From Balanoglossus misakiensis (taxonomy: Eukaryota; Animalia; Hemichordata), in the NCBI GenBank assembly GCA_040954595.2, contig CM082586.2:4285125-4349124 (forward strand): a stretch of 64,000 nt of DNA, read 5' to 3'. Under the pieces are notes generated by a model that made no database searches, was not told the DNA's origin, and saw only the letters and a list, made by a program, of their open reading frames with translations. Shown piece by piece: positions 34,057 through 61,378 of this stretch. The position numbers and the translations under genes were made by a program. Position 1 is the first letter of the stretch. Each line of letters opens with the position of its first letter.

Positions 34057-37000
34057 ATGTCGGTAGAGGTTGTCGTCGAGAACTTCATAGATGGGAAATA
34101 CGTGCCCAGCGATGCCCATATCGACAGCTATGACCCGTCCACCGGGGTAGTGTGGGCCAAGATTCCGGACAGTGGCGAAAGGGACATCGAAACGGCCGTA
34201 GCCGCTGCGAACAGGGCATTCGCATCGTGAGTAAATAAGATAAATTCATTTTGTTCAGGTAGGATCAATGGTGCGTTTCGGATGGTTTCCTACATTGTAG
34301 GGCCGTGCGCTGTCACTGATCGGACCGTACCAGTACCACCATAGACAGTACGGTCTATGGTACCACACACAGGCTTGACAGTATACTAGTAACTGTCAGT
34401 GTTACATAATATTTGAGTGCAGCGATTGTATAGATCTTTGCATAGAGTGACCATGATCTGTGTCACACACAGTCTTTGTAAAGGTGTGTTGCCCTGAATG
34501 CTCAATACTTGCGCATACATTTTCTAGCACTATTAAAACCTCATGATCTGCCACTAGCACTATGCTTGTGCAGTCTTACTACAGGAGACTGAATAAGTGG
34601 GTGTGGCACCCATTTATTAGTTACCTTATTCACATTTAAACGTACAGCCACAATCCGAGTTTGATTAAATTTTTGGGAACATGCCCAATGCCATAAGCAA
34701 GCCTATTTAAATGGACCAGTGATAAAGTTGAAATTTTGTATATAAACAACCAAACTACATGTAAATGAAACTTTTATCTTTTCCCCCCCAAGATGGTCGA
34801 CAACTCCAGCTCCGGAACGTTCGCGGATCATGCATAAAATAGCTGATATCCTGGAATCCAGACTGGAAGAGTTTGCCAAGATGGAATCCAGGGACCAGGG
34901 CAAGCCAGTCTCACTGGCCAGGAGTGTGGATATTCCCAGGGCCATCTACAACTTCCGGTTCTTTGCGTCAACTATTCTACATGTTAAAAATCAGTAAGTT
35001 GGTCATTGTCAGTGTTATTCAAATGCTCATGTACATGACAAAAATTTGCTGAATGAAGAGATATATATTCCAATGTATTTTTGCAGATCAACAGTCATGG
35101 AAGACAGGGGCTGTATCAACTACACAACTCGTACGCCCGTCGGTGTGGCTGGTTTGATCAGCCCGTGGAATTTGCCGCTGTACCTGTTAACTTTCAAGAT
35201 AGCTCCTTGCATAGCGACCGGGAATACGTGTGTCTGTAAGCCGAGCGAGATGACCTCGGTGACGGCTTGGATGCTGGGGACGGTGTTGAATGAAGCCGGT
35301 AAGTGTTCTTGAGGGTGGTAAGTGTTAACTCGAATTTGGTAAGTCGACATCTAATCAAGTGCTGTATTACTGGTATGCATTGTAGAGAGACAACATTCAG
35401 TGTAATTAAATGTCAGGGAATGTGTTGAATGAAGCTTGTAAGTGAACATGAAGCTGATGAAACAAAGTGCGATCAGTTTTACTGACAGAGAGCCATACAT
35501 GTACATGTAACACATTTCTTTTATGTCTGTGGTCTGTGAGGACGCAAGAAAGTGATCGTGACTTGAGTCAATGTTTTTCACCTTCAGGTTTACCTGCTGG
35601 AGTAGTGAATATAGTGTTTGGAACGGGACCTCGCGCTGGCAGTGCCCTGGTCAAACATCCTGATGTGCCACTTGTGTCCTTCACTGGAAGTACACCCACT
35701 GCTGAGAAAATCAGACAAGACTGTGCTCCTTTCTGTAAAAAGTTATCACTAGAGGTCAGTCGACCGGTCATTAGGGACTCGGAATAGTGTATTTAGTGAC
35801 TAATGCCTTTGTCAAATCCTTAAATATTGCCGTAATAAGACAATTTTCAGTTTGTATTAAAGCTGTCTGATTGATGCTCAAAATGATCGGCAAACACATT
35901 CTGTTTGACTCTCAGCTCGGTGGAAAGAACCCATGCCTTGTATTCGATGATGTGAATTTAGACGAATGTGTCGCCACCAGTGTGAAGTCGAGCTTCGCCA
36001 ACCAGGGCGAGATCTGTCTCTGCAGTAGTAGGATCTTTGTACAGAAGGGTGTCTATGATGCGTTTCTGGAGAAATTTGTCGAAGAGGCCAGGTCAGTGTG
36101 CCAGGACTACTAGTATTATTTTCAGTGCATCAATTTCGATGAAGAATGCATCACCACCACCATGGTTTGGTCCAAATCCATAATGGCAGACCTGGCATTT
36201 TGTTCTTCTGTTGCAGGAAAATCAAAGTCGGCGTACCGTATGAGGACGCCACGAATATGGGAGCTCTTGTCAGCAAAGAACATCTAGCAAAGGTCAAAGG
36301 TTATGCCAGTCTTGCCAGGGAAGATGGTGGAACGGTCCATTGTGGCGATGGGGTGGATCCTGAACCGGACTTGCCAGCGAAACACAGAGGGGTAAGTTTA
36401 ACACTTTAGTATTCACTGTGATTGTCTGATATGAAACTCTTCCCACTCCTGACCCGAAATCTGATGGAACCATGTAATTAAGTTATTTCTTGGTGATGCA
36501 AAGATTGTTCATCTTCCTGTCTTTTATTTGCACTTTCCTAGTTTGTCCTTTGGACATGTCTTCAAAAACTGTCCCAGATTCTTATAACTTTCTTAGAATT
36601 CGAAATAAGACAATTTACACAAACTAAGAAATGAGAAAAATGTTCCTTAAACTTTTGACTGCAATTGTGAAAAAACAAATCAGTCTTTCTGGGTAAGACA
36701 TACACTTTTTCAAGTACATGTAAATCATTCTAAATGCGTCCTTTTATTTAAAGATGCAAAAGAAACAAACACAGATTTTGGTGATACAAATGTCAAATTC
36801 ATATAATGAGCTTGCCATTGATGTGTTGGTCTTTGGTTGGGGCTAGAATAATTTGGGAGTTTATTATCCAAATACACATTTATAAGTTGGTTAAAATTGA
36901 TGTTTCTTTAGAGACAATGGAACGCATGCACAGATGTCCAGCAATGACCAGCTTTCTCATTTTGGCAATTTCACCCCCCAAAAAATCATTAGATAAAAAT

Positions 37001-40000
37001 TCCGGCTAAAAAAACGGTATCAATCAAGTGTTTATGCATATCGCCTGACTATCGACCTGCTTGAAGTCCTGATCAATCTGATATGCCAGTCCACTGCAAT
37101 AACCTTTACCATCTAGTTGTATACCATGATTGATCGTTAAATAAATAACAGAGTGTCTAATCTGTGTGTCAGGGCACTGGCTATTGGGTGCCTGACAATA
37201 GCCTCGGCCTGAACTTTGTACTCATCGCAGCCATTAACAAAAGCTGTAACCTCTGCGAGCTCGCGTCTGTAAATTTCCAAAATCAATAAGTTTCTCTCAC
37301 GCTGCAGTTACTTTGTATCAACAATGACTACCGCTATTCCGAAACCAAATCTGTTAGATGTTCTGGAGAAATTCGGTGAAGGCTCGCTGTACTGTCTGGC
37401 TTGCTCGAAGTTACTGAAGAATCCAAAATGTCTGCCGTGCCTTCATACATTTTGTGAAGGCTGTCTGTTACCAGCGGACGAGAAACAAGAAAATCTGGTG
37501 TGTAAGGCCTGCGGTAAACAGCACGTAATTCCTGATAATGGCATAAAGGAGTTTAAAGACAACCCCTTTATGAGGTCTCTGCTACAAGAAGTTGCAAAGC
37601 TGGAGAAGCAACTCAGTGATCGTGCCGGTGACTTGGGTAACTGCCGATGTGAGGTGGGCACCCATGCTAAGCATATCTGCATACGATGTCGACAGAAGTG
37701 TTGTGATGTGTGCGCCGGTCAACACCGAGATCACTCGCATCTGGTGGTTACTTTAGCAGAGAGGAAGGTGGACAACAGATCAGCGTTGTCTTGCACCATT
37801 CACAAGGAAGAGGAGGTGAAATTATTTCGTGTCATAGACCAGATGCCAGTGTGTGTCTTCTGTGCTGTCACCAAGCATGACAAGAATTTCCTCAAAGATC
37901 TGACTGATGACCTGGTAAAGGAAAAGGCGAAAGACTTGGTACGTGAGGTACGTAAATTAGAGGGCAAGGCCCACGAAGTTGAGAGGAGGGGAAACGACAT
38001 CGCAGCCAACAGCGAAAAGGTAGAAAATACCAACAGGCGAGAAAAAGAGAAGCTGAAAGAGAAAGGCCGGGAGATTAGAAGAGTAATCGCAAGGGAAGAG
38101 CAGAGACTGGCAGATGTACTTACAGAAGCTAACGACACAAAAGTGAAAGATAATCAAACGAGGATGGCGCAACTGGAGATGACGTACGGGTACATCTCAG
38201 TCCTTTGCACTTATGTAGAGAGTATGCTGCAGCAAGGGAAAGAAGGTGGAATTGAACTGCTGAAAAAAAGAGCCAGCCTGATGACCTGCGTGAAACAGGT
38301 GCGTGACACAGATACTCAGCCAGGAATTGATAAAGTGCCATCCACGTTTCAACCCAATAATAACGTGAGTGTCCCTGGGGTGCTTGGTCGACTGACACAT
38401 ACGAAGAAATCAGCATTCAACAGGTTGAATCTCGCAACACTCATGAACATTGTTGTACAAATACTTCTTGTTGTGGTGGTATGTTGGGTGTGGGATCACG
38501 GTCTGCCATGGCTTGCCGCAACCGGGCCAAACTATGCAATAAACGGTTCTGATGTAGTTGTCACAAACACTGGGGATGTCAAAGTTGCCAGAGGTGACTA
38601 CACCCGTTTGCTGGTGAAAACCAAAGACAACCAGAGCGATCTGGTGGTACCATGTCACAAATTAATTGCCCAACTAAGGAATTACGACCAACATGTTCTG
38701 TCAAAACTCCCAGTGGTTGACAACAACAATGGAACGTGCAGTGTCACTGTACCGGGACAAGTAATTGGTAACTATAAAGTAACAATGGCGATTGGAAACC
38801 AAGCCATACAGGGTTCGCCAGTTGATATTTCTGTTATAATGGATGGATTCATGAAGTACGCAACCAGTGGCTCAGCCATAATTGTCACTAACACTGATGT
38901 TGTCAAAGTTCCCAGAGGTGACTACACCAGTTTGCTGGTGAAAACCAAAGACAACCAGAGCGATCTGGTGGTACCATGTCACAAATTAATTGCCCAACTA
39001 AGGAACTACGACCAGCATGTTCTGTCAAAACTCCCAGTGGTTGACAACAACAATGGAACATGCAGTGTCATCCTGCAGGAAATAATTGTTGGAAACTATA
39101 CAGTAACCATAGCGATTGGAAACCAGGCCATAAAAGGGTCGCCACTTAGTATATCAATCACACAACTCTGGAAAACTATAGAAAGTGATGGGTCTACATA
39201 TGGACAATTCAAATCCCCAGTTGGCTTGGCTGTAACAAAAGACTCAGATTTGGTAATTGCTGATACACACAACAATAGATTACAAGTAGTAAAAATAGAT
39301 GGAAATGTCAAGAAAAGTTTTTCATTTTACAAAGATGACAGTGGGAAAATTTTACAAACTTCTGTCAGGAACAGACAGATTTTTTATTTTTTGTTTGTTT
39401 CTTTTCCTTTCTTTTTGTGTTTGTTTTGTTTCTTTTATTGTTTATTTTCAGTAGTTACCTAAAATTTATTTTTGTTGACCACATAGGTAATTGTATCAAA
39501 CTATTTGTTGTTTAGTGGATACAATTTGTTGCAAAAAAGAGTTATGTAATTTTGAGTAAGATGGGTTTCGATTGGTGGGGCCGTGACTCTAGTATGTCCA
39601 GTACATTATGTTGATTCTAATTTCTTTTTTATACAGATGGAACTCATTACAAATAGATTAATTTTAGTTGGCTATTAATTTAATTTGAACTTTGAAGTCT
39701 AATGTTCACTCTTGAATTACATAGTGAAAGTTTGCGACAATTTCCAGACCTACACCAAAATTTAATGTTATAATTCAGCTTTTGTGTAGTATTTGTATAC
39801 CTACCTGTCCAGTGAAATTGAAACGTTTAATATATAATAAGCATTACTTTGTATTGCGAGATGCATTAAGCTAAAATTTTGTAAGAATTTGACTTTTGTG
39901 TAAAAAAGTATTAATCACCGCTTTTGCATAAACAGTGTCAAGTAAATACTCTAGTGTTAATTAGAATCAGTTGACAACACGGAATTAACAACTTTATGTT

Positions 40001-41689
40001 TGTGACATTTTAAAATTTGAGCTGTGAGCCTCATCCACATATATATCAATGGTTGATGTATAGCAAGTTCATTCTTTTTCAACTTTTATCAGAGTTTTAC
40101 TTTATGAGCGACTTTATCATTCTGCGTAACTATAGCTTTGCTGTAGATACAAAGTTTAATTTGTTGTAGTGACAATAGGTGATATATAACACTTGTCTAA
40201 AATCTGTAGGCTGATTATATCTCAATAAATAAGAATATATTCCAGCAAAATATGTATTTGTAGTGTATGCGGTACAATAGGATGAATGTTGTGACTGTAT
40301 AAAGTGTATTGGTATAACACATACAATCCCACAAACTTTGTGTTACAAGTGTTATTGGATAATTAAAGGTCTTTGATTAATGTGTGAGAAATGTTATCCA
40401 ATGGTGTAATGTGTGAAGACAAAGATTCGCCAACTTAATTATAAGTTCATAATAGTGAAATAGGCATTGGTGACTTTTACACACAGCATGTGAAAGGTGT
40501 TGATGCCAAAAGTCACCAAAACCATCCTCGGAAGAAAACCAACAGAGCTATATACAGACCCACAGCCAACCCCAAAGCAGCAATAACTATCCAGTCTCCC
40601 TCATGTGCAAATTAATGTATTTTACATTTCCTTTTCACAAGCCCCCTTTTCAGTGAAACATCCATCTTGAATCAGATTGCAAGTTGTGTTAATAATGTGT
40701 GTGCTTTGGTTTGTCCACCATTTCTTTCCTACAGGGATATTTCATGAAGCCAACAGTGGTGACAGGCTTGTCCGACAATTCACGCTGTATGCAAGAAGAA
40801 ATCTTTGGTCCAGTGGTCTGCATCACACCATTTGACACTGAGAAAGAGGTCAGTCTGTCTGGGTCATTGACTTTTTATTTAGGGTTAGTGAGTGGGTGGA
40901 CCCCAAACTAGCCTGGACTGCACAACTATCTTGTTTAGTTGGATGATGTATTGTTGCCATTTTAATGATAAAATTTGGAAACTATTTGCCATATCAGAGT
41001 AGTGACTAAAGGTACATGATTTTGCAGGCAGTTCTGTGTTGTACAAACAATTATCATATCTCTTGATACCTGCATGTGTGTGTAGATGGGTGCATTGGTA
41101 TTTGCATGACTAGGCAGATGAGCGCTCATGTAACCTTTGACCCTTTCTACCTGTCAGGTGATCGAGAGGGCCAATGGTGTCAAGTATGGCCTGTCAGCCT
41201 GTGTTTGGACAAGGGACGTCGGAAAGACCCACCGAGTGGCACAGAAACTACATGTGAGTATTACCCACTGGCTGTTTATTTATCACGACTTTGTCAGCAT
41301 TTGACTGCTTCATCAACATAAAAACATGCAAATGGTATTTCAAAATTATAAAGCATATTTCGCAAGGGAGGATTTTGACCGCGGGTTGTCATTTTTAGCC
41401 AAGACTTGTTTCCTCCAGTGAGTGTCAGAATGAGACACTGTGAATAACCACGGTCACTCCACACAGTGGAATAACCAAGGAGTGTGTGAGATTTAAATGC
41501 ATTGTCCCTAACAGAAACTTTGGCATATTTTTTTATATCCAGGCCGGAACTGTATGGGCCAACTGTTGGTTTATCCGGGATCTAAATATGCCATTCGGTG
41601 GAATGAAGTCCTCGGGAATAGGCCGGGAAGGAGACAAAGATTCCGTGGACTTCTACACAGAAGAAAAGGTCATCTGCATCAAGATGTAG
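34057..41689 (+). CDS. ALDH8A1: 2-aminomuconic semialdehyde dehydrogenase ALDH8A1, intact copy; exons 34057-34226, 34793-34993, 35087-35298, 35588-35754, 35916-36091, 36217-36391, 40735-40848, 41158-41253, 41543-41689
   Basis: Nine GT-AG exons in frame; [27 protein letters not shown], catalytic LSLELGGKNP and [31 protein letters not shown]. Confidence 0.93.
37324..39462 (+). pseudogene. Nested intronless TRIM copy 1 (RING-Bbox-CC-TM-2x filamin) with most of the NHL propeller deleted; truncated ORF or pseudogene
   Basis: 712-aa ORF; relative to copy 2, a 99-nt in-frame deletion at ~39335, then ~500 nt replaced by a T-rich tract (~39378-39470); the original end [13 protein letters not shown] survives after the new stop at ~39474-39515. 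Confidence 0.8.
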
Positions 41690-44763: not shown

Positions 44764-45559
44764 TTACTACACGAGACTGAATAAGTGGGTGTGGCACCCA
44801 TTTATTAGTGACCTTATTCACATTTAAATGTACAGCCACAATCCGAGTTTGATTAAATTTTTGGGAACATATGCCCAATGCCATAAGTAAGCATATTTAA
44901 ATGGACCAGTGATAAAATTGAAATTTTGTATAAACAACCAAACTACATGTAAATGAAACTTTTATCTTTTCCCCCCAAGATGGTCGACAACTCCAGCTCC
45001 GGAACGTTGATCGCGGATCATGCATAAATTTAAATAGCTGATATCCTGGAATCCAGACTGGAAGAGTTTGCCAAGATGGAATCCAGGGACCAGGGCAAGC
45101 CGGTCTCACTGGCCAGGAGTGTGGACATTCCCAGGGCCGTCTACAACTTCCGGTTCTTTGCGTCAACTATTCTACATGTTAAAATCAGTAAGTTGGTCCT
45201 GGTCAGTGTTATTCAAACGCTCATGTACAAAAACTTGCTGAATGAAGAGATATATATTCCAATGTATTTTTGCAGATCAACAGTCATGGAAGGCAGGGGC
45301 TGTATCAACTACACAACTCGTACGCCCGTCGGTGTGGCTGGTTTGATTAGCCCGTGGAATTTGCCGTTGTACTTGTTAACTTTCAAGATAGCTCCGTGCA
45401 TATAGCAACTGGGAATACGTGTGTTTGCAAGCCGAGCGAGATGACCTCGGTGACGGCTTGGATGCTGGGGAAAGTGTTGAATGAAGCTGGTAAGTGTTCT
45501 TGAGGGTGGTAAGTGTTAACTCGAATTTGGTATACAGTAAGTCAGCATCTGCATGATGC

Positions 45560-46257
45560 TGAAATAGACTTACTGAATGGCTCGCTTTGGTGAACCAACC
45601 ATCGCAGCACGCAACAAAGACGGTCAACAACAGGCACACCACACGTTACATGTATTTCCTTGCTTATGGAAACTTTTTAATTACTACAACTAAACATTGG
45701 TAAATATAAAATGACTGTACACTGAGGAAAAAACACAGTAAAAATAAATGACTACCTTAAATGTGACCAGGTGTGGGAAATGAAAAACTAAAGTCCAAGC
45801 TTCCGTAGCGCACGACGAACGCGACCAGCACCACGGCAGTCCCAACAGCGACGTTCAGTCCGAGTAGCGTTCTGGCACAATTCCCCGGTAGACGGCACGG
45901 CTTTCGGACGAATTCCCCATGAGGTAGCACGACTTCTGGGCGCGGTTTCCAGACCAGGACAGCATGAAACAACACGGCTTCTGGGCGCGGTTTCCAGACC
46001 AGGACAGCATGAAATACAGCACAGCTTCTGGGTGCGGTTTCCTGTGTATCAAGAAATAAGGCTTCCAAGCCGGCGAGGAACAGAACAGCTCACACGGGCA
46101 AGTCCAAATTAGTAGCTACGACGCAACACAACGTGCGGGCTTTTTATATGGGGAAAATAATGAATGCACCACACCTGGTCAAGCAAATATTCAAATTACG
46201 AAATCAAGCGAAAACACACCTGGTCACAAAACAACAGCAAACTTCTCCTACGTAACA
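45560..46257 (-). mobile_element. Probable solo LTR (Gypsy-like) in intron 3 of ALDH8A1 copy 2
   Basis: Absent from unit 1; minus strand reads TGTTACG...TATTTCA; TATAAAAAG (~46140) and ATTAAA (~45677) on minus strand; internal ~46-bp tandem repeats; degenerate 4-bp target duplication (empty site GTGC). Confidence 0.6.
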
Positions 46258-48090
46258 GTTTTGTATTATGTATATTATAATATACCACCATATTCTGTGG
46301 TCTGTGGTGACGCAAGAAAGTGATCGTGACCAGACTCAATGTTTTCGCCATCAGGTTTACCTGCTGGAGTTGTGAATATAGTGTTTGGAACGGGACCTCG
46401 CGCTGGCAGTGCCCTGGTCAAACATCCTGATGTGCCACTTGTGTCCTTCACTGGAAGTACACCCACTGCTGAGAAAATCAGACAAGACTGTGCGCCTTAC
46501 TGTAAAAAGTTATCACTAGAGGTCAGTCGACCGGTCATTAGGGATTCGGAATAGTGTATTTAGGGACTAATGCCTTTGTCAAGTCCATAAATATTGCCGT
46601 AATAAGACAATTTTCAGTTTGTATTAAAGCTGTCAGATTGATGCTCATAATGATCGACGGACACATTCTGTTTGACTCTCAGCTCGGTGGGAAGAACCCA
46701 TGCATTGTCTTCGATGATGTGAATTTAGACGAGTGTGTCGCCACCAGCGTGAAGTCGAGCTTCGCCAACCAGGGCGAGATCTGTCTCTGCAGTAGTAGGA
46801 TCTTTGTACAGAAGGGTGTCTATGATGCTTTTCTGGAGAAATTTGTCGAAGAGGCCAGGTCAGTGTGCCAGGACTACTAGGATTATTTTCAGTGCATCAA
46901 TTTCGATGAGGAATGCATCACCACCACCATGGTTTGGTCCAAATCCATAATGGCAGACCTGGCACTTTGTTCTTCTCTTGCAGGAAAATCAAAGTCGGCG
47001 TACCGTACGAGGACGCCACGAATATGGGAGCTCTTGTCAGCAAGGAACATCTGGCAAAGGTCAAAGGCTATGCCAGTCTTGCAAGGGAAGACGGCGGAAC
47101 GGTCCATTGTGGCGATGGGGTGGATCCTGAACCGGACTTGCCAGCAAAACACAGAGAGATAAGTTCAACACTTTAGTATTCACTGTGATTGTCTGATATG
47201 AAACTCTTCCCACTCCTGACCCGAAATCTGATGGAACCATGTAATTAAGTTATTTCTTGGTGATGCAAAGATTGTTCATCTTCCTGTCTTTTATTAGCAC
47301 TTTCCTAGTTTGTCCTTTGGACATGTCTTCAAAAACTGTCCCAGATTCATATAACTTTCTTAGAATTCGAAATAAGACAATTTATACAAACTAAGAAATG
47401 AGAAAAAATGTTCCTTAAACTTTTGACTGCAATTGTGAAAAAACAAATCAGTCTTTCTGGGTAAGACATACACTTTTTCAAGTACATGTAAATCATTCTA
47501 AATGCGTCCTTTTATTTAAAGATGCAAAAGAAACAAACACAGATCTGGGTGATACAAATGTCAAATTCATATAATGAGCTTTCCATTGATGTGTTGGTCT
47601 TTGGTTGGGGCTAGAATAATTTGGGAGTTTATTATCCAAATACACATTTATAAGTTGGTTAAAATTGATGTTTCTTTAGAGACAATGGAACGCATGCACA
47701 GATGTCCAGCAATGACCAGCTTTCTCATTTTGGCAATTTCACCCCCCAAAAAATCATAAGATAAAAATTCCGGCTAATAAAACGGTATCAATCAAGTGTT
47801 TATGCATATCGCCTGACTATCGACCTGCTTGAAGTCCTGATCAATCTGATATGCCAGTCCACTGCAATAACCTTTACCATCTAGTTGAATACCATGATTG
47901 ATCAATAAATAACGGAGTGTCTAATCAGTGTGTCGGGGCACTGGCTATTGACAGGCGCCTCACAATAGCCTCGGCCTGAACTTTGTACTCATCGCAGCCA
48001 TTAACAAAAGCTGTAACCTCTGCGAGCTCGCGTCTGTAAATTTCCAAAATCAATAAGTTTCTCTCACGCTGCAGTTACTTTGTATCAACA

Positions 48091-50793
48091 ATGACTACCG
48101 CTATTCCGAAACCAAATCTGTTAGATGTTCTGGAGAAATTCGGTGAAGGCTTGCTGTACTGTCTGGCTTGCTCGAAGTTACTGAAGAATCCAAAATGTCT
48201 GCCGTGCCTTCATACATTTTGTGAAGGCTGTCTGTCACCAGCGGAAGAGAAACAAGAAAATCTGGAGTGTAAGGCCTGCCGTAAACAGCACGTAATTCCT
48301 GATAATGGCATAAAGGAGTTTAAAGACAACCTCTTTATGAGGTCTCTGCTACAAGAAGTTGCAAAGCTGGAGAGGCAACTCAGTGATCGTGCCGATGACT
48401 TGGGTAACTGCCGATGTGAGGTGGGCACCCATGCTAAGCATATCTGCATACGATGTCGACAGAAGTGTTGTGATGTGTGCGTCGTTCAACACCGAGATGA
48501 TCACTCGCATCTGGTGGTTACTTTAGCAGAGAGGAAGGTGGACAACAGATCAGCGTTGTCTTGCACCATTCACAAGGAAGAGGAGGTGAAATTATTTCGT
48601 GTCATAGACCAGATGCCAGTGTGTGTCTTCTGTGCTGTCACCAAGCATGACAAGAATTTCCTCAAAGATCTGACTGATTCCCTGGTAAAGGAAAAGGCGG
48701 AAGACTTGGTACGTGAGGTACGTAAATTAGAGGGCAAGGCCCACGAAGCTGAGAGGAGTGGAAACGACATCGCAGCCAACAGCGAAATGGTAGAAAATAC
48801 CAACAGGCGAGAAAAAGAGAAGCTGAAAGAGAAAGTCCGGGAGATTAGAAAAGTAATCGCAAGGGAAGAGCAGAGACTGGCAGATGTACTTACAGAAGCT
48901 AACGACACAAAAGTGAAAGATAATCAAACGAGGATGGCGCAACTGGAGATGACGTACGGGTACATCTCAGTCCTTTGCACTTATGTAGAGAGTATGCTGC
49001 AGCAAGGGAAAGAAGGTGGAATTGAACTGCTGAAAAAAAGAGCCAGCCTGATGACCTGCGTGAAACAGGTGCGTGACACAGATACTCAGCCAGGAATTGA
49101 TAAAGTACCATCCACGTTTCAACCCAATAATAACGTGAGTGTCCCTGGGGTGCTTGGTCAACTGACACATACGAAGAAATCAGCATTCAACAGGTTGAAT
49201 CTCGCAACACTCATGAACATTGTTGTACAAATACTTCTTGTTGTGGTGGTATGTCGGGTGTGGGATCACGGTCTGCCATGGCTTGCCGCAACCGGACCAA
49301 ACTATGCAATACACGGTTCTGATGTAGTTGTCACAAACACTGGGGATGTCAAAGTTCCCAGAGGTGACTACACCAGTTTGCTGGTGAAAACCAAAGACAA
49401 CCAGAGCGATCTGGTGGTACCATGTCACAAATTAATTGCCCAACAAAGGAATTATGACCAGCATGTTCTGTCAAAACTCCCAGTGGTTGACAACAACAAT
49501 GGAACATGCAGTGTCACTGTACCGGGACAAGTAATTGGTAACTATAAAGTAACCATGGCGATTGGAAACCAAGCCATACAGGGTTCGCCAGTTGATATTT
49601 CTGTTATAATGGATGGATTCATGAAGTACGCAACCAGTGGCTCAGCCATAATTGTCACAAACACTGATGTTGTCAAAGTTCCCAGAGGTGACTACACCAG
49701 TTTGCTGGTGAAAACCAAAGACAACCAGAGCGATCTGGTGGTACCATGTCACAAATTAATTGCCCAACAAAGGAATTACGACCAGCATGTTCTGACAAAA
49801 CTCCCAGTGGTTGACAACAACAATGGAACATGCAGTGTCATCCTGCAGGGAATAATTGTTGGAAACTATACAGTAACCATAGCGATTGGAAACCAGGTCA
49901 TAAAAGGGTCGCCACTTAGTATATCAATCACACAACTCTGGAAAACTATAGGAAGTGCTGGGTCTTCATATGGACAATTCAACTTCCCAGTTGGCTTGGC
50001 TGTAACTAAAGATTCAGATTTGGTAATTGCTGATAGAGACAACAATAGATTACAAGTAGTAAAAATAGATGGAAATGTCAAGAAAAGTTTGTCATTTTAC
50101 AAAGAAGGAAAATTAACAGAAATTCGGCCATTTGATTTAGCAATATCAGATGATAATAAATATTTTATAACAGATCGTATTAGTAGAGAAATAGTTGTAA
50201 GTGATGACAGTGGGGAAATTTTACAAACTTTTGGCAAGAGCAGACTCATGTACCCTCGCTGTATTGCCATTAGCCCAATCACTGGCAGTGTTTATGTAAC
50301 AGAATGGGACGGGAAGACTGGTGACACAGGCACAGACACAAGCAGGCATGGTTTATGGAAATACACACAGGATGGCGAGTACATTACATCAATCGGAAGT
50401 TATGGAAAGGGCCATGGCCAGTTTAATTCACCTTACTTTATGGCATTTGACAGATTTGGATACTTGTTCGTATGTGATTTTAATAACGCGCGTGTCCAGG
50501 TGTTTGATTCAAATGATCAGTTTGTACGTGCATTTGGCACCTACGGAGATGGAAACGGACAGTGCAAACGTCCAACCGGAATAGTCGTTAGTGAGGATGA
50601 CTTTGTGTATGTAAGTGATTATCCTGCTGGCATTATTAACAAATTTGACACCAATGGCAACTTTATCAGCCGTATTGACGATGACAGTGATGGGTTAAAA
50701 TTTCCACATGGGCTTGCTCTGACAAAGGATGAACCTAATCGTCTTGCTGTTGTTGACTTCAAAGGTAATTGTATCAAACTATTTGTTGTTTAG
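48091..50793 (+). CDS. Nested intronless TRIM-NHL E3 ligase copy 2, 900 aa (RING, 2 B-boxes, coiled coil, predicted TM helix, 2 filamin/Ig repeats, ~6 NHL repeats)
   Basis: RING CLAC...[10 protein letters not shown]...CKAC; hydrophobic [18 protein letters not shown]; filamin motif [10 protein letters not shown]...GNQAIQGSP twice; NHL repeats GQFNFPVGLAV, GQFNSPYFMAFD, LKFPHGLAL; uninterrupted ORF. Confidence 0.92.
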   Translation: MTTAIPKPNLLDVLEKFGEGLLYCLACSKLLKNPKCLPCLHTFCEGCLSPAEEKQENLECKACRKQHVIPDNGIKEFKDNLFMRSLLQEVAKLERQLSDRADDLGNCRCEVGTHAKHICIRCRQKCCDVCVVQHRDDHSHLVVTLAERKVDNRSALSCTIHKEEEVKLFRVIDQMPVCVFCAVTKHDKNFLKDLTDSLVKEKAEDLVREVRKLEGKAHEAERSGNDIAANSEMVENTNRREKEKLKEKVREIRKVIAREEQRLADVLTEANDTKVKDNQTRMAQLEMTYGYISVLCTYVESMLQQGKEGGIELLKKRASLMTCVKQVRDTDTQPGIDKVPSTFQPNNNVSVPGVLGQLTHTKKSAFNRLNLATLMNIVVQILLVVVVCRVWDHGLPWLAATGPNYAIHGSDVVVTNTGDVKVPRGDYTSLLVKTKDNQSDLVVPCHKLIAQQRNYDQHVLSKLPVVDNNNGTCSVTVPGQVIGNYKVTMAIGNQAIQGSPVDISVIMDGFMKYATSGSAIIVTNTDVVKVPRGDYTSLLVKTKDNQSDLVVPCHKLIAQQRNYDQHVLTKLPVVDNNNGTCSVILQGIIVGNYTVTIAIGNQVIKGSPLSISITQLWKTIGSAGSSYGQFNFPVGLAVTKDSDLVIADRDNNRLQVVKIDGNVKKSLSFYKEGKLTEIRPFDLAISDDNKYFITDRISREIVVSDDSGEILQTFGKSRLMYPRCIAISPITGSVYVTEWDGKTGDTGTDTSRHGLWKYTQDGEYITSIGSYGKGHGQFNSPYFMAFDRFGYLFVCDFNNARVQVFDSNDQFVRAFGTYGDGNGQCKRPTGIVVSEDDFVYVSDYPAGIINKFDTNGNFISRIDDDSDGLKFPHGLALTKDEPNRLAVVDFKGNCIKLFVV

Positions 50794-53700
50794 TGGATAC
50801 AATTTGTTGCAAAAAAGAGTCATGTAGTTTTGAGTAAGATGGGTTTCGATTGGTGGGACCGTGACTCTGGTATGTCCAGTACATTATGTCGATTCTAATT
50901 TCTTTTTTTATACAGATGGAACTCATTACAAATAGATTAATTTTAGTCGGCTATTAATTTAATTTGAACGTTGAAGTCTAATGTTCACTCTTGAATTACA
51001 TAGTGAAAGTTTGCGACAATTTCCAGACCTACACCAAAATTTAATGTTATAATTCAGCTTTTGTGTAGTATTTGTATACCTACCTGTCCAGTGAAATTGA
51101 AACGTTTAATATATAATAAGCATTACTTTGTATTGCGAGATGCATTAAGTTAAAATTTTGTAAGAATTTGACTTTTGTGTAAAAAAGTATTAATCACCGC
51201 TTTTGCATAAACAGTGTCAAGTAAATTCTCTAGTGTTAATTAGAATCAGTTGACAACACGGAATCAACAACTTTATGTTTGTGACATTTTAAAATTTGAG
51301 CTGTGAGCCTCATCCACATATATATCAATGCTTGATGTATAGCAAGTTCATTCTTTTTCAACTTTTATCAGAGTTTTACTTTATGAGCGACTTTATCATT
51401 CTGCGTAACTATATCTTTGCTGTAGATACAAAGTTGAATTTGTTGTAGTGACAATAGGTGATATATAACACTTGTCTTAAATCTGTAGGCTGATTATATC
51501 TCAATAAATAAGAATATATTCCAGCAAAATATGTATTTGTAGTGTATGCGGTACAATAGGATGAATGTTGTGACTGTATAAAGTGTATTGGTAAAACACA
51601 TACAATCCCACAAACTTTGTGTTACAAGTGTTATTGGATAATTAAAGGTCTTTGATTAATGTGTTAGAAATGTTATCCAATGGTGTAATGTGTGAAGACA
51701 AAGATTCGCCAACTTAATTATAAGTTCATAATAGTGAAATAGGCATTGGTGACTTTTACACACAGCATGTGAAAGGTGTTGATGCCAAAACTATCCTCAG
51801 GAGAAAACCAGCAAAGCTATCACGGACCCACAGCCAACCCCCAAAAAAGCAAAAACTATCCAGTCTCCCTCATGTGCAAATTAATGCATTTTACATTTCC
51901 TTTTCACAAGCCCCCTTTTCAGTGAAACATCCATCTTGAATCAGATTGCAAGTTGTGTTAATAATGTGTGTGGTTTGGTTTGTCCACCATTTCTTTCCTA
52001 CAGGGATATTTCATGAAGCCAACAGTGGTGACGGGATTGTCCGACAATTCACGCTGTATGCAAGAAGAGATCTTTGGTCCAGTGGTCTGCATCACACCAT
52101 TTGACAATGAGAAAGAGGTCAGTCTGTCTGGGTCACGGACTTTTTATCTAGGGTTAGTGAGTGGGTGGGCCCCAAACAGACCTGGACTGCACAACTATCT
52201 TGTTTAGTTGGATGATGTATTGTTGCCATTTTAATGATAAAATTTGGAAACTATTTGCCATATCAGAGTAGTGACTAAAGGTACTTGATTTTGTAGGCAG
52301 TTCTGTGTTGTACAAACAATTATCATATCTCTTGATACCTGCATGTGTGTGTAGATGGGTGCATTGGTATTTGCATGACTAGGCAGATGAGCGCTCATGT
52401 AACCTTTGACCCTTTCTACCTGTCAGGTGATCGAGAGGGCCAATGGTGTCAAGTATGGCTTGTCGGCCTGTGTTTGGACAAAAGACGTCGGAAAGACCCA
52501 CCGAGTGGCACAGAAACTACATGCGAGTATTATCCACTGGCTGTTTATTTATCATGACTTTGTCAGCATTTGACTGATTCATCAACATAAAAACGTGCAA
52601 ATGGTATTTCAAAATTATAAAGCATATTTCGCAAGGGAGGATTTTGACCGCGAGTTGTCATTTTTCGCCAAAACTTGTTTCCTCCAGTGAGTGTCAGAAT
52701 GAGACACTGTGAATAACCAAGGAGTGTGTGAGATTTAAATGCATTTATTGTCCCTAACAGAAACTTTGGCATATTTTTTTATATCCAGGCCGGAACTGTA
52801 TGGGCCAACTGTTGGTTTATCCGGGATCTAAATATGCCATTCGGTGGAATGAAGTCCTCGGGAATAGGCCGGGAAGGAGGCAAAGATTCCGTGGACTTCT
52901 ACACAGAAGAAAAGGTCATCTGCATCAAGATGTAGAATCCCGGGAAGATGATGTGGAAAATTTTAAAATAGTACAGATAACCAATACATTGTACATTGAA
53001 GACAGTTACCTCAATGTTAAAATAAAGTATAGATACTGAATTAAAATTATGTGATGGGATAGGGGTTCAAGTTATGTTTGGTGAAATATATGGTTTTTAA
53101 AAAAAAATGTGAGTACATGCAACATGCATTGTTACCTTAATAAAGTTTGTTGAACACAGTACCGTAATTGATTCAATTTTTTGTGTAAGTGCAAGGTCAG
53201 TGCCCCCATAAATTTCATCCCTGTTAAGTATCAGCTGCCACACACATACATCAGCTGTGCAGTATGAATAAAACTGTCCAGATCAGGTTCAAAATAGCAT
53301 ACCATTGTTGAAGAAATGGCAATGGCCACAATTTGAGGTCACTTTGCTGACCTAATGCATAGATGAACTACCCAAATAAGTGACCAAGGTTTTTTCTTTT
53401 TTAATTTTGGATTTCTCAAAGTTGGCAACTACTAGGTCACGTGATACATTTTGTGTAAACAGCTGACAGACTATCATGTAGTCCTGACTTTAACAACGAG
53501 ACATCAAAGCATATTCTGTAATATTTAAACTAATACCAAGTTATTGTTTGATGGGCGTACAAACTGAGTTTCAAGTTATGTATAGCACGCCACGAACATC
53601 TGTGACACAAACCGTAGCATTTTTATGAATGCATGCAGGCCTCGCTGATTGATTATATAGCGCCCTCTATAGCACTGTTTGTCAATTACACTGATGGCAA

Positions 53701-55416: not shown

Positions 55417-56213
55417 TTACTACAGGAGACTGAATAAGTGGGTGTGGCACCCATTTATTAGTGACCTTATTCACATTTAAATGTACAGCCACAATCCGAG
55501 TTTGATTAAATTTTGGGAACATATGCCCAATGGCATAAGTAAGCATATTTAAATGGACCAGTGATAAGTTTTGTATAAACAACAAAACTACATGTAAATG
55601 AAACTTTTATTTTTCCCCCCAAGATGGTCGACAACTCCAGCTCCGGAACGTTGATCGCGGATCATGCATAAAATAGCTGATATCCTGGAATCCAGACTGG
55701 AAGAGTTTGCCAAGATGGACTCCAGGGACCAGGGCAAGCCGGTCTCACTGGCCAGGAGTGTGGATATTCCCAGGGCCGTCTACAACTTCCGGTTCTTTGC
55801 GTCAACTACTAGTATTCTACATGTTAAAATCAGTAAGTGGGTCCTTGTCAGTAATATTCAAACGCTCATGTACATGACAAAAACTTGCTGAATGAAGATA
55901 TATATTATTCCAATGTATTTTTGCAGATCAACAGTCATGGAAGACAGGGGTTGTATCAACTACACAACTCGTACGCCCGTCGGTGTGGCTGGTTTGATTA
56001 GCCCGTGGAATTTGCCGTTGTACTTGTTAACTTTCAAGATAGCTCCGTGCATATAGCAACCGGGAATACGTGTACGCGTGTGTGTGTAAAGATGAGCGAG
56101 ATGACCTCGGTGACAGCATGGATGCTGGTGTTGAATGAAGCTGGTAAGTGTTCTTGATGGTGGTAAGTGTTAATTCGAATTTGGTATACAGTAAGTCAGC
56201 ATCTGCATGATGC

Positions 56214-56913
56214 TGAAATAGACTTACTGAATGGCTCGCTTTGGTGAACCTACCAGCGCAGCACGCAACAAAGACGGTCAACAACAGGCACACCACACGT
56301 TATTTCCTTGCTTATGGAAACTTTTTAATTACTACAACTAAACATTGGTAAATATAAAATGACTGTACACTGAGGAAAAAACACAGTAAAAATAAATGAC
56401 TACCTTAAATGTGACCAGGTGTGGGAAATGAAAAACTAAAGTCCAAGCTTCCGTAGCGCACGACGAACGCGACCAGCACCACGGCAGTCCCAACAGCGAC
56501 GTTCAGTCCGAGTAGCGTTCTGGCACAATTCCCCGGTAGACGGCACGGCTTTCGGACGAATTCCCCATGAGGTAGCACGACTTCTGGGCGCGGTTTCCAG
56601 ACCAGGACAGCATGAAACAACACGGCTTCTGGGCGCGGTTTCCAGACCAGGACAGCATGAAATACAGCACAGCTTCTGGGGGCGGTTTCCTGCAGACCAG
56701 TGTATCAGGAAATAAGGCTTCCAAGCCGGCGAGGAACAGAACAGCTCACACGGGCAAGTCCAAATTAGTAGCTACGCTGCAACACAACGTGCGGGCTTTT
56801 TATATGGGGAAAATAATGAATGCACCACACCTGGTCAAGCAAATATTCAAATTACGAAATCAAGCGAAAACACACCTGGTCACAAAACAACAGCAAACTT
56901 CTCCTACGTAACA
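56214..56913 (-). mobile_element. Probable solo LTR, duplicated copy in unit 3
   Basis: Same sequence and site as 45560-46257; flanks ATGC / GTGC. Confidence 0.6.
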
Positions 56914-58708
56914 GTGCTGTATTATGTATATTATTATATACCACCATATTCTGTGGGGATGGTGACACAAGAAAGTGTTCGTGACCAGACTCAATGTTTT
57001 CACCATCAGGTTTACCAGCTGGAGTTGTGAATATAGTGTTTGGAACGGGACCTCGCGCTGGCAGTGCCCTGGTCAAACACCCTGATGTGCCACTTGTGTC
57101 CTTCACTGGAAGTACACCCACTGCTGAGAAAATCAGACAAGACTGTGCGCCTTACTGTAAAAAGTTATCATTAGAGGTCAGTCAATCGGTCATTATGAAC
57201 TCGGAATAGTGTATTTAGTGACTAATGCCTTTGTGAAATCCTTAAATATTGCCGTAATAAGACAATTTTCAGTCTGTCAGATTGATGCACATAATGATCG
57301 ACGGACACATTCTGTTTGACTCTCAGCTCGGTGGAAAGAACCCTTGCATCATATTCGATGATGTGAATTTAGACGAGTGTGTCGCCACCAGTGTGAAGTC
57401 GAGCTTCGCCAACCAGGGCGAGATCTGTCTCTGCAGTAGTAGGATCTTTGTACAGAAGGGTGTCTATGATGCTTTTCTGGAGAAATTTGTCGAAGAGGCC
57501 AGGTCAGTGTGCCAGGACTACTAGGATTCTTTTCAGTGCATCGGTTTCGATGTTGAATGCATCACCACCACCATGGTTTGGTCCAAATCCATAATGGCAG
57601 ACCTGGCATTTTGTTCTTCTCTTGCAGGAAAATCAAAGTCGGCGTACCGTACGAGGACGCCACGAATATGGGAGCTCTTGTCAGCAAAGAACATCTAGCA
57701 AAGGTCAAAGGCTATGCCAGTCTTGCAAGGGAAGACGGCGGAACGGTCCATTGTGGCGATGGGGTGGATCCTGAACCGGACTTGCCAGCGAAACACAGAG
57801 GGGTAAGTTTAACACTTTAGTATTCACTGTGATTGTCTGATATGAAACTCTTCCCACTCCTGACCCGAAATCTGATGGAACCATGTAATTAAGTTATTTC
57901 TTGGTGATGCAAAGATTGTTCATCTTCCTGTCTTTTATTAGCATTTTCCTAGTTTGTCCTTTGGACATGTCTTCAAAAACTGTCCCAGATTCATATAACT
58001 TTCTTAGAATTCGAAATAAGACAATTTATACAAACTAAGAAATGAGAAAAATGTTCCTTAAACTTTTGACTGCAATTGTGAAAAAACAAATCAGTCTTTC
58101 TGGGTAAGACATACACTTTTTCAAGTACATGTAAATCATTCTAAATGCGTCCTTTTATTTAAAGATGCAAAAGAAACAAACACAGATTTGGGAGATACAA
58201 ATGTCAAATTCATATAATGAGCTTTCCATTGATGTGTTGGTCTTTGGTTGGGGCTAGAATAATTTGGGAGTTTATTATCCAAATACACATTTATAAGTTG
58301 GTTAAAATTGATGTTTCTTTAGAGACAATGGAACGCATGCACAGATGTCCAGCAATGACCAGCTTTCTCATTTTGGCAATTTCACCCCCCAAAAAATCAT
58401 TAGATAAAAATTCCGGCTAATAAAACGGTATCAATCAAGTGTTTATGCATATCGCCTGACTATCGACCTGCTTGAAGTCCTGATCAATCTGATATGCCAG
58501 TCCACTGCAATAACCTTTACCATCTAGTTGAATACCATGATTGATCAATAAATAACGGAGTGTCTAATCAGTGTGTCGGGGCACTGGCTATTGACAGGCG
58601 CCTCACAATAGCCTCGGCCCGAACTTTGTACTCATCGCAGCCATTAACAAAAGCTGTAACCTCTACGAGCTCGCGTCTGTAAATTTCCAAAATCAATTTG
58701 TATCAACA

Positions 58709-61378
58709 ATGACTACCGCTATTCCGAAACCAAATCTGTTAGATGTTCTGGAGAAAGTTGGTGAAGGCTCACTGTACTGTCTGGCTTGCTCGAAGTTACT
58801 GAAGAATCCAAAATGTCTGCCGTGCCTTCATACATTTTGTGAAGGCTGTCTGATACCAGCGGACGAGAAACAAGAAAATCTGGTGTGTAAGGCCTGCGGT
58901 AAACAGCACGTAATTCCTGATAATGGCATAAAGGAGTTTAAAGATAACCCCTTTATGAAGTCTCTGCTACAAGAAGTTGCAAAGCTGGAGAAGCAACTCA
59001 GTGATCGTGCCGATGACTTGGGTAACTGCCGATGTGAGATGGGCACCCATGCTAAGCATATCTGCATAGGATGTCCACAGAAGTGTTGTGATGTGTGCGT
59101 CGTTCAACACCGAGATGATCACTCGCATCTGGTGGTTACTTTAGCAGAGAGGAAGGTGGACAACAGATCAGCGTTGTCTTGCACCATTCACAAGGAAGAG
59201 GAGGTGAAATTATTTCGTGTCATAGACCAGATGCCAGTGTGTGTCTTCTGTGCTGTCACCAAGCATGACAAGAATTTCCTCAAAGATCTGACTGATTCCC
59301 TGGTAAAGGAAAAGGCGGAAGACTTGGTACGTGAGGTACGTAAATTAGAGGGCAAGGCCCACGAAGCTGAGAGGAGTGGAAACGACATCGCAGCCAACAG
59401 CGAAATGGTAGAAAATACCAACAGGCGAGAAAAAGAGAAGCTGAAAGAGAAAGTCCGGGAGATTAGAAAAGTAATCGCAAGGGAAGAGCAGAGACTGGCA
59501 GATGTACTTACAGAAGCTAACGACACAAAAGTGAAAGATAATCAAACGAGGATGGCGCAACTGGAGATGACGTACGGGTACATCTCAGTCCTTTGCACTT
59601 ATGTAGAGAGTATGCTGCAGCAAGGGAAAGAAGGTGGAATTGAACTGCTGAAAAAAAGAGCCAGCCTGATGACCTGCGTGAAACAGGTGCGTGACACAGA
59701 TACTCAGCCAGGAATTGATAAAGTACCATCCACGTTTCAACCCAATAATAACGTGAGTGTCCCTGGGGTGCTTGGTCAACTGACACATACGAAGAAATCA
59801 GCATTCAACAGGTTGAATCTCGCAACACTCATGAACATTGTTGTACAAATACTTCTTGTTGTGGTGGTATGTCGGGTGTGGGATCACGGTCTGCCATGGC
59901 TTGCCGCAACCGGACCAAACTATGCAATACACGGTTCTGATGTAGTTGTCACAAACACTGGGGATGTCAAAGTTCCCAGAGGTGACTACACCAGTTTGCT
60001 GGTGAAAACCAAAGACAACCAGAGCGATCTGGTGGTACCATGTCACAAATTAATTGCCCAACAAAGGAATTATGACCAGCATGTTCTGTCAAAACTCCCA
60101 GTGGTTGACAACAACAATGGAACATGCAGTGTCACTGTACCGGGACAAGTAATTGGTAACTATAAAGTAACCATGGCGATTGGAAACCAAGCCATACAGG
60201 GTTCGCCAGTTGATATTTCTGTTATAATGGATGGATTCATGAAGTACGCAACCAGTGGCTCAGCCATAATTGTCACAAACACTGATGTTGTCAAAGTTCC
60301 CAGAGGTGACTACACCAGTTTGCTGGTGAAAACCAAAGACAACCAGAGCGATCTGGTGGTACCATGTCACAAATTAATTGCCCAACAAAGGAATTACGAC
60401 CAGCATGTTCTGACAAAACTCCCAGTGGTTGACAACAACGATGGAACATGCAGTGTCATCCTGCAGGGAATAATTGTTGGAAACTATAAAGTAACCATAG
60501 CGATTGGAAACCAGGCCATAAAAGGGTCGCCACTTAGTATATCAATCACACAACTCTGGAAAACTATAGGAAGTGCTGGGTCTTCATATGGACAATTCCA
60601 ATCCCCATATGGCTTGGCTGTAACAAAAGACTCAGATTTGGTAATTGCTGATACACACAACAATAGATTACAAGTAGTAAAAATAGATGGAAATGTCAAG
60701 AAAAGTTTGTCATTTTACAAAGACGAAAAATTAACAGAAATTTGGCCACATGATTTAGCAATATCAGATGATAATAAATATTTTATAACAGATCGTATTA
60801 ATAGAGAAATAGTTGTAAGTGATGACAGTGGGGAAATTTTACAAACTTTTGGCAAGAACAGACTCATGTACCCTCGCTGTATTGTCATTAGCCCAATCAC
60901 TGGCAGTGTTTATGTATCAGACGTCGGCATGCATGTTTTATGGAAATACACACAGGATGGCAAGTACATTAAATCAATCGGAAGTTATGGAAAGGGCCAT
61001 GGCCAGTTTGATTCACCTTTATTCATGGCATTTGACAGATTTGGAAACTTGTTCGTATGTGATATTTATAACGCGCGTGTCCAGGTGTTTGATTCAAATG
61101 ATCAGTTTGTACGTGCATTTGGCACCTACAGAGATGGAAACGGACAGTTAAAATATCCAATTGGAATAGTCGTTAGTGAGGATGACTTTGTGTATGTAAG
61201 TGATTCTTATGCTGTCACTGTTAACAAATTTGACACCAATGGCAACTTTATCAGCCGTATTGACGATGACAGTGATGGGTTAAAATTTCCACGTGGGCTT
61301 GCTCTGATAAAGGATGAACCTAATCGTCTTGCTGTTGTTGACTCCACAGGTAATTGTATCAAAGTATTTGTTGTATAG
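58709..61378 (+). CDS. Nested intronless TRIM-NHL E3 ligase copy 3, 889 aa, same architecture as copy 2
   Basis: Uninterrupted ORF collinear with copy 2; differences cluster in the RING region and the NHL repeats. Confidence 0.92.
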   Translation: MTTAIPKPNLLDVLEKVGEGSLYCLACSKLLKNPKCLPCLHTFCEGCLIPADEKQENLVCKACGKQHVIPDNGIKEFKDNPFMKSLLQEVAKLEKQLSDRADDLGNCRCEMGTHAKHICIGCPQKCCDVCVVQHRDDHSHLVVTLAERKVDNRSALSCTIHKEEEVKLFRVIDQMPVCVFCAVTKHDKNFLKDLTDSLVKEKAEDLVREVRKLEGKAHEAERSGNDIAANSEMVENTNRREKEKLKEKVREIRKVIAREEQRLADVLTEANDTKVKDNQTRMAQLEMTYGYISVLCTYVESMLQQGKEGGIELLKKRASLMTCVKQVRDTDTQPGIDKVPSTFQPNNNVSVPGVLGQLTHTKKSAFNRLNLATLMNIVVQILLVVVVCRVWDHGLPWLAATGPNYAIHGSDVVVTNTGDVKVPRGDYTSLLVKTKDNQSDLVVPCHKLIAQQRNYDQHVLSKLPVVDNNNGTCSVTVPGQVIGNYKVTMAIGNQAIQGSPVDISVIMDGFMKYATSGSAIIVTNTDVVKVPRGDYTSLLVKTKDNQSDLVVPCHKLIAQQRNYDQHVLTKLPVVDNNDGTCSVILQGIIVGNYKVTIAIGNQAIKGSPLSISITQLWKTIGSAGSSYGQFQSPYGLAVTKDSDLVIADTHNNRLQVVKIDGNVKKSLSFYKDEKLTEIWPHDLAISDDNKYFITDRINREIVVSDDSGEILQTFGKNRLMYPRCIVISPITGSVYVSDVGMHVLWKYTQDGKYIKSIGSYGKGHGQFDSPLFMAFDRFGNLFVCDIYNARVQVFDSNDQFVRAFGTYRDGNGQLKYPIGIVVSEDDFVYVSDSYAVTVNKFDTNGNFISRIDDDSDGLKFPRGLALIKDEPNRLAVVDSTGNCIKVFVV

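What the first reader, a model, noticed from the sequence alone, without database searches (positions are those of the whole stretch)
48091..50793. TRIM-NHL with an internal transmembrane helix: candidate receptor-type E3 ligase with cytosolic RING and luminal/extracellular Ig-Ig-propeller
Seen: between the coiled coil and the filamin repeats lies an uncharged ~20-aa stretch [20 protein letters not shown](W/R)VW (38431-38493, 49201-49263, 59820-59882). It is preceded by basic residues (TKKSAFNR) and followed by domains carrying N-glycosylation sequons (NGT, NYT, NGS in copy 1) and a Cys pair per filamin repeat. There is no signal peptide. Established: TRIM2/3/71-type filamin+NHL proteins are soluble cytoplasmic proteins with one filamin repeat, and TM-bearing TRIM13/TRIM59 carry the helix at the C-terminus with no ectodomain. 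Inference: type II topology puts the RING/B-box/coiled coil in the cytosol and the NHL propeller outside, so ligand binding could be coupled directly to ubiquitination.
Basis: partly seen in the sequence, partly recalled or inferred. Interest (0 to 1): 0.9.

Follow-up and report, generated by a model that had tools for sequence, protein, structure and literature searches.

The report
Membrane-spanning TRIM-NHL of acorn worms
This gene is a TRIM-NHL family member with an inserted hydrophobic helix, also found in two acorn-worm relatives, that is predicted to cross a membrane and would place a fast-varying binding propeller outside the cell, but its own ubiquitin-ligase part is likely crippled, so it is more likely a variable receptor or decoy than a stand-alone signalling ligase.

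Summary
Observation confirmed. The intact 900-aa open frame reads RING, two B-boxes, coiled coil, a 20-residue hydrophobic helix, two filamin repeats, six-bladed NHL propeller. The three copies are one recent tandem triplication, not independent evidence. Independent support: of 64 RBCC-filamin relatives, 2 carry a strongly hydrophobic helix at the same place, a Ptychodera sister protein (34-39% identity, sharing the filamin Cys pair) and a Saccoglossus protein that gained it separately (single origin rejected, p-AU 0.0003). No in-frame splice-out was found. Copies 2 and 3 differ mainly on the propeller's ligand face (19 of 33 positions against 14 of 235), but soluble paralogs do too. Best reading: a type II membrane TRIM-NHL acting as a variable receptor, ligase-weak in this lineage, probably ligase-competent in the relatives. 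Topology, expression and activity are untested. Not found in print in ten searches; nearest precedent is zebrafish btr31 (RING-TM-B30.2).

The parts
48091..50793 (+). TRIM-NHL copy 2: single open frame, 900 aa, nested in intron 6 of a broken aldehyde dehydrogenase duplicate
48160..48282 (+). RING (C24-R64): all eight zinc ligands kept; E2-contact positions changed to A26, K29, A51, K61, A62; linchpin R64 kept here, G in copies 1 and 3
48409..48510 (+). B-box 1 (C107-H140), first Cys pair one residue shorter than in relatives
48562..48657 (+). B-box 2 (C158-N189), degenerate: R170, D173, N189 where 46 of 47 other rows have C, C, H
48676..49077 (+). Coiled coil and following helices (aa 196-329)
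   Evidence: AlphaFold2 model
49195..49260 (+). Predicted transmembrane helix (aa 369-390), basic residues on its N-side
49321..49605 (+). Filamin repeat 1 with C445/C473
49648..49929 (+). Filamin repeat 2 with C553/C581; 91% identical in DNA to repeat 1 (recent internal duplication)
49930..50790 (+). Six-bladed NHL propeller; ligand face highly variable between copies
37324..39462 (+). Copy 1: helix and filamins intact, propeller mostly deleted, ends in a T-rich non-homologous tail
58709..61378 (+). Copy 3: intact, 889 aa; identical to copy 2 over codons 124-577, divergent on the propeller face
34057..41689 (+). Host gene, nine-exon aldehyde dehydrogenase (ALDH8A1-like label recalled), intact only in unit 1; its duplicates at about 44980-52940 and 55620-63510 lack exon 1 and carry a stop and frameshifts

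Best explanation
The gene encodes a TRIM-NHL protein with an inserted hydrophobic helix that is predicted to span a membrane once, which would leave the RING, B-boxes and coiled coil in the cytosol and the two filamin repeats and the propeller in the lumen or outside the cell, where the fast-varying propeller face likely binds a changing foreign ligand, while its own RING is likely ligase-weak. Shown: domain order, the helix, its recurrence in two relatives from two origins, variation concentrated on the ligand face, loss of E2-contact residues. Inferred: N-in type II topology (no signal peptide, about 370 residues of zinc-finger domains before the helix, basic N-flank; recalled topogenesis rules). 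Inferred mechanism: the coiled coil makes a two-helix membrane dimer; a multivalent ligand clusters dimers and brings RINGs together, which is how TRIM RINGs are switched on (PMC9732051). In the Ptychodera and Saccoglossus proteins this would give ubiquitination; in this lineage it would instead capture or internalise ligand, act as a decoy, or borrow activity from an intact TRIM partner.
For: Best hit among 1.84 billion representatives is Ptychodera flava XP_070531764.1 (E 1.5e-79), with helix 416-434 (KD 2.53) between coiled coil and filamin; Saccoglossus XP_002731878.1 has helix 396-414 (KD 2.72). The other 62 of 64 RBCC-filamin relatives reach at most 1.24 in the linker and 1.57 anywhere. 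Tree without the linker: query and Ptychodera sisters 100/99; Saccoglossus sister to a soluble Saccoglossus paralog 100/100; one clade rejected p-AU 0.000267. AlphaFold2 gives a free-standing helix in both modelled proteins (371-390; 416-434). Both filamin cysteines occur together in only 3 of 49 rows: copies 2, 3 and the Ptychodera protein. Face positions: 19 of 33 differ between copies 2 and 3 against 14 of 235 elsewhere in the propeller; pN 0.31 against pS 0.053 (Fisher p 0.015). TRIM frames stay open in units 2 and 3 while the host gene there is broken. E2 contacts kept: 1 and 0 of 6 in copies 2 and 3, 5 of 6 in both TM relatives, at least 4 of 6 in 41 of 46 RINGs.
Against: The helix of copy 2 holds N and Q and is the weakest of the three on a crude insertion scale (+1.18 against -1.99 and -1.59); AlphaFold confidence there is low (pLDDT about 41-52). 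Sequons are not enriched. Face variability is a family trait, seen in soluble Glandiceps paralogs (18 of 33 against 20 of 231), so it does not show an extracellular ligand. The 33-position face set was drawn up after I had seen the differences. The face of copy 2 is basic (8 K/R, 1 D/E), as in cytosolic RNA-binding NHL domains. The convergent Saccoglossus protein lacks the Cys pair, and closeness of the two cysteines could not be measured. Charge bias around the Ptychodera helix is weak. Outside the propeller, pN/pS among copies is near 1 (1.02, 0.74, 1.54; few changes). All relatives are predicted gene models.
Confidence: 0.5

Rival explanations
1. Autonomous receptor-type E3 ligase: same topology, and this protein itself ubiquitinates on ligand binding.
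For: All eight RING zinc ligands kept and linchpin R64 kept in copy 2; flanking dimerisation region aligns with TRIM2; both TM relatives keep 5 of 6 E2 contacts.
Against: TRIM2 contacts I25, E28, Y50, P61, V62 (PMC9732051) map to A, K, A, K, A; lowest scores of 46 RINGs; R64G in copies 1 and 3, and R64 mutation ablates TRIM2; B-box 2 lost three ligands.
Confidence: 0.2
2. The helix only tethers to a membrane surface or packs on a partner; filamins and propeller stay cytosolic and act like soluble paralogs, possibly binding RNA.
For: No sequon enrichment; basic face and family-wide variability; by eye, copy 2 matches about 6 of 14 LIN41 RNA contacts; polar residues in the helix; 54 of 2000 shuffles as hydrophobic.
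Against: Relatives have 19-residue strongly apolar helices of ordinary spanning length; new clade-specific Cys pair right after the helix; copy 3 keeps only about 2 of those LIN41 contacts.
Confidence: 0.15
3. A decaying retrocopy: the protein is losing function and the helix no longer matters.
For: Single-frame gene nested in an intron; RING and B-box 2 damage; pN/pS near 1 outside the propeller; copy 1 truncated.
Against: Two 2.7-kb frames intact while the host duplicates are broken; changes cluster on one face at about 20 times the flank rate (30 differences in 1863 flank bases); layout kept at 34-39% identity to Ptychodera.
Confidence: 0.1
4. The helix is spliced out and the mature protein is a soluble TRIM-NHL.
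For: Donor-like sites at 49069 and 49135 score as well as real donors.
Against: No acceptor in the ORF (best 1.5) reaches the weakest of 8 real host-gene acceptors (2.6); the only candidate after the helix (49483) is out of phase; two RefSeq models of relatives include the helix. The score rests on only 8 training sites.
Confidence: 0.05

Closest known systems
Class VII TRIM-NHL proteins (TRIM2, TRIM3, TRIM71/LIN-41)
   Same: RBCC, filamin, six-bladed NHL; propeller matches TRIM2 NHL at TM-score 0.93, rmsd 1.9; class definition in PMC9732051 (passages).
   Different: Inserted hydrophobic helix, two filamin repeats with a Cys pair, degenerate RING surface and B-box 2, hypervariable face; belongs to a hemichordate expansion, orthology to any human gene not tested.
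Zebrafish btr31 (RING-TM-B30.2)
   Same: TRIM-derived protein in which a predicted membrane separates RING from the C-terminal recognition domain; function called unknown (PMC3137616, passages).
   Different: btr31 lost B-boxes and coiled coil and ends in B30.2; here the RBCC is kept, the end is filamin-NHL, and the layout arose twice.
TRIM13 and TRIM59
   Same: RING ligases with one TM at the ER membrane (table in PMC9285105).
   Different: Their helix is C-terminal with no folded ectodomain (recalled); here about 510 residues follow.
Receptor-type E3 ligases (RNF43/ZNRF3, MEGF8-MOSMO-MGRN1)
   Same: Concept of extracellular signals controlling cytosolic ubiquitylation (PMC12458338 summary).
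   Different: RNF43/ZNRF3 are type I with signal peptide, PA domain and C-terminal RING-H2 (recalled); MMM is a multi-subunit complex. Here predicted type II, TRIM scaffold, one chain.

Membership tests
Class VII TRIM-NHL | RING with eight zinc ligands | tested here: met
Class VII TRIM-NHL | Intact B-box 2 | tested here: not met
   R170, D173, N189 against C, C, H in 46 of 47 rows; met in the two TM relatives
Class VII TRIM-NHL | Coiled coil | tested here: met
   helix 196-304 in model
Class VII TRIM-NHL | Filamin then six-bladed NHL | tested here: met
   filamin doubled
Class VII TRIM-NHL | E2-binding surface of an active RING | tested here: not met
   1 of 6 contacts in copy 2, 0 of 6 in copy 3; activity itself not testable
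LIN41/TRIM71 RNA-binding subgroup | RNA stem-loop contact residues on the upper face | tested here: inconclusive
   by-eye mapping, about 6 of 14 in copy 2 and 2 of 14 in copy 3
TRIM13/TRIM59 type | RBCC followed by one TM helix | tested here: met
   predicted by hydropathy and model
TRIM13/TRIM59 type | TM at the C-terminus, no ectodomain (recalled) | tested here: not met
   510 residues of filamin and NHL follow
PA-TM-RING receptor-type E3 (RNF43/ZNRF3) | Signal peptide, N-terminal PA ectodomain, C-terminal RING-H2 (recalled) | tested here: not met
   no N-terminal hydrophobic stretch, RING at N-terminus
Receptor-type E3 (as a way of working) | Ligand-binding domain across the membrane from the RING | not testable with these tools
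   inferred only
Receptor-type E3 (as a way of working) | Ligand-controlled ubiquitination | not testable with these tools
   sequence argues against autonomous activity in this lineage

The most novel reading that the evidence does not exclude
Acorn worms have at least twice turned a cytosolic TRIM-NHL sensor into a single-chain type II membrane receptor that shows a hypervariable propeller to the outside or the endosome lumen and fires RINGs by ligand-driven clustering: a TRIM-built class of pattern-recognition receptor, with ligase-competent members (Ptychodera, Saccoglossus) and ligase-dead decoy or partner-dependent members such as this one.
Probability: 0.3. Interest if true: 0.9.

Novelty: new variant of a known kind. 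Interest (0 to 1): 0.7.

Why it matters
TRIM-NHL proteins are treated as soluble cytosolic ligases or RNA binders. A version with the recognition propeller across a membrane from the RING would be a one-chain link between outside ligands and ubiquitin, built from parts whose clustering-based activation is already understood. Its repeated origin gives a natural test of how a cytosolic domain becomes an ectodomain (new Cys pair), and two named public proteins make topology and activity directly testable.

Tried and rejected
No whole genome is held, so other paralogs in this organism were not counted. No RNA holder was listed; this says nothing on expression. Word-index searches were nearly blind: 0 hits for aa 250-620, 5 for the whole protein, 14 for the three-protein profile with no new TM-bearing TRIM-NHL. 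Atlas search gave generic TRIM-NHL clusters and a weak filamin hit. Sequon enrichment: rejected. Three copies as independent support: rejected. One origin of the helix: rejected. Face variability as TM-specific: rejected. Low cysteine count in the propeller (3-6 in TM forms; range 0-14 over 44 rows) is not distinctive. The second hydrophobic stretch of copy 1 comes from a T-rich replacement, not homologous sequence. An in-frame fusion of host exon 6 to the TRIM frame through the acceptor-like site at 48074 is out of phase (by hand). Distance between filamin cysteines could not be read, since models return no coordinates. No complex prediction was run. Earlier-findings look-ups by sequence, long word list and place were empty.

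Full report
Observation. The window holds three related frames, 37324-39462, 48091-50793 and 58709-61378. Copy 2 reads RING, B-boxes, coiled coil, hydrophobic stretch, two filamin repeats and NHL. The stretch starts at 49195, is uncharged from L369 to C388 and has a 19-residue hydropathy mean of 2.41; no N-terminal signal-like stretch is seen. Alone it is modestly unusual, 54 of 2000 shuffles reach it. The copies sit in a tandem triplication of about 10.7 kb at 95-97% identity, so they count once.

Setting. Each TRIM frame lies, on the same strand, in intron 6 of a nine-exon aldehyde dehydrogenase gene whose spliced frame is intact in unit 1 (the ALDH8A1 label is recalled). In units 2 and 3 the host lacks exon 1 and has a stop and frameshifts, while the TRIM frames are whole; in unit 1 the host is whole and the TRIM has lost most of its propeller. 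The duplicates therefore look kept for the TRIM (inference). Scored on the 8 real host introns, no acceptor in the TRIM frame reaches the weakest real one, and the only candidate after the helix is out of phase with the two donor-like sites.

Relatives. HMMER with aa 1-615 gave 3581 hits, of which 150 were listed. Thirty ids were looked up: 28 are hemichordate proteins, one a protist transcript, one unnamed; the window is thus probably from an acorn worm (inference). The best hit, Ptychodera flava XP_070531764.1, has a hydrophobic helix at 416-434, and Saccoglossus XP_002731878.1 has one at 396-414, each between coiled coil and filamin and followed by NHL. Among the 172 proteins then held, 65 had an N-terminal RING/B-box region and a filamin (query included); only these three have a linker window of 2.4 or more, the other 62 at most 1.24. 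On a crude insertion scale (parameter values recalled, my own weighting) the three score +1.18, -1.99 and -1.59, the 62 others at best +3.84. Trees built without the linker (43 rows quick; a 23-row subset careful) make query and Ptychodera sisters (100/99) and pair the Saccoglossus protein with a soluble Saccoglossus paralog (100/100); holding the three together is rejected (p-AU 0.000267). The helix was thus gained at least twice, or gained once and lost repeatedly. AlphaFold2 models show an isolated helix at 371-390 and 416-434, with low to moderate confidence.

Which side is out. Inferred, not shown. For: no signal peptide, large zinc-finger domains before the helix, K/R bias on the N-side in the query and the Saccoglossus protein, weak in Ptychodera; both filamin cysteines together in only 3 of 49 rows, copies 2, 3 and Ptychodera, at loop positions that lie at one end of an Ig fold (recalled; not measured). 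Against or neutral: sequons 4 before and 5 after the helix, 1 and 1 in Ptychodera, and several soluble paralogs have as many; the Saccoglossus protein has no Cys pair.

The propeller face. Copies 2 and 3 are identical over codons 124-577 but differ by 46 non-synonymous and 6 synonymous changes in the propeller. Taking the residues around the blade proline and after the strand-b aspartate, the register of the LIN41 RNA contacts (PMC5908797 passages; TRIM71 sequence), 19 of 33 differ against 14 of 235 elsewhere, the 19-residue indel loop left out; pN 0.31, pS 0.053. I defined this set after seeing the list of differences. Soluble Glandiceps paralogs show the same pattern (18, 15 and 13 of 33), so it marks the family as variable binders and does not prove an outside ligand. 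Gene conversion, or two alleles assembled in tandem, could explain the identical middle; flanks differ by 0.8-2.2%.

The ligase part. TRIM2 contacts its E2 through I25, E28, Y50, P61, V62 and needs R64 (PMC9732051 passages). These map to A26, K29, A51, K61, A62 and R64 here, with G64 in copies 1 and 3. Copies 2 and 3 keep 1 and 0 of 6, the lowest of 46 complete RINGs (3 of 49 rows lacked the region); both TM relatives keep 5. B-box 2 has lost three ligands held by 46 of 47 other rows. The same paper reports that TRIM RINGs need dimerisation or clustering and that an inactive RING can work in a heterodimer, although its inactive RING kept E2 binding, which this one probably does not.

Mechanism. 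Most likely a type II membrane TRIM-NHL: a coiled-coil dimer on the cytosolic face, an Ig-Ig stalk and variable propeller on the far side, clustering by a multivalent ligand. In the relatives this would switch on ubiquitination; in this lineage it would more likely capture ligand, act as decoy or rely on a partner. My odds: spans the membrane about 0.75, variable-ligand receptor given that about 0.7, ligase-weak about 0.65; the joint reading is put at 0.5 because the steps are not independent and weak activity is allowed.

Known systems and novelty. Ten full-text searches listed no paper on a TRIM-NHL with an internal helix; I saw listings and abstract starts for most hits, and the library lacks most subscription papers; no supplements were opened. 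Nearest precedent is zebrafish btr31, RING-TM-B30.2 with unknown function (PMC3137616 passages). TRIM13 and TRIM59 are listed with one TM at the ER (PMC9285105 passages); receptor-type ligases are defined in the summary of PMC12458338. Earlier scan notes on sponge and sea-urchin propellers varying on one face are unchecked leads. Verdict: real feature, new variant of TRIM-NHL with convergent support, first reading partly supported, interest 0.7.

Noticed in passing
window 34057-64000: Reciprocal loss in the triplication: unit 1 keeps the aldehyde dehydrogenase and breaks the TRIM; units 2 and 3 break the dehydrogenase and keep the TRIM.
   Followed up: yes
window 48460-49821 against copy 3: Copies 2 and 3 are identical over 454 codons while flanks differ by 0.8-2.2%: gene conversion, or alleles placed in tandem by the assembly.
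   Followed up: partly
window 48054-48074: Acceptor-like site 17 bases before the ATG, perhaps a 5' UTR intron.
   Followed up: partly
window 39336-39471: Copy 1 propeller replaced by a short T-rich tract that translates as a second hydrophobic stretch.
   Followed up: yes
P0029 (Saccoglossus XP_002731878.1) aa 360-435: The helix sits between two copies of the filamin-start motif, suggesting insertion by a small local duplication.
   Followed up: partly
P0160-P0164 (Branchiostoma): Amphioxus TRIMs ending in an ALK/LTK-type glycine-rich domain with no TM helix.
   Followed up: partly
P0165 (Branchiostoma belcheri): Model reading RBCC, RING, Deltex C-terminal, hydrophobic helix, collagen, C-type lectin; may be two fused genes.
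   Followed up: no
P0078 (Ptychodera XP_070561834.1): RBCC with a moderately hydrophobic C-terminal tail (KD 1.72), a TRIM13/59-like layout.
   Followed up: no
window 154-867 (-), 6665-9751 (+), about 16181-33000 (-): THEG-repeat gene, Cas1p-type acyltransferase in long open frames, and a many-exon UBR5-like gene (label recalled; weak UBR-box hit).
   Followed up: no
window about 45530-46290: Insertion with short internal repeats in unit 2, absent from unit 1.
   Followed up: no
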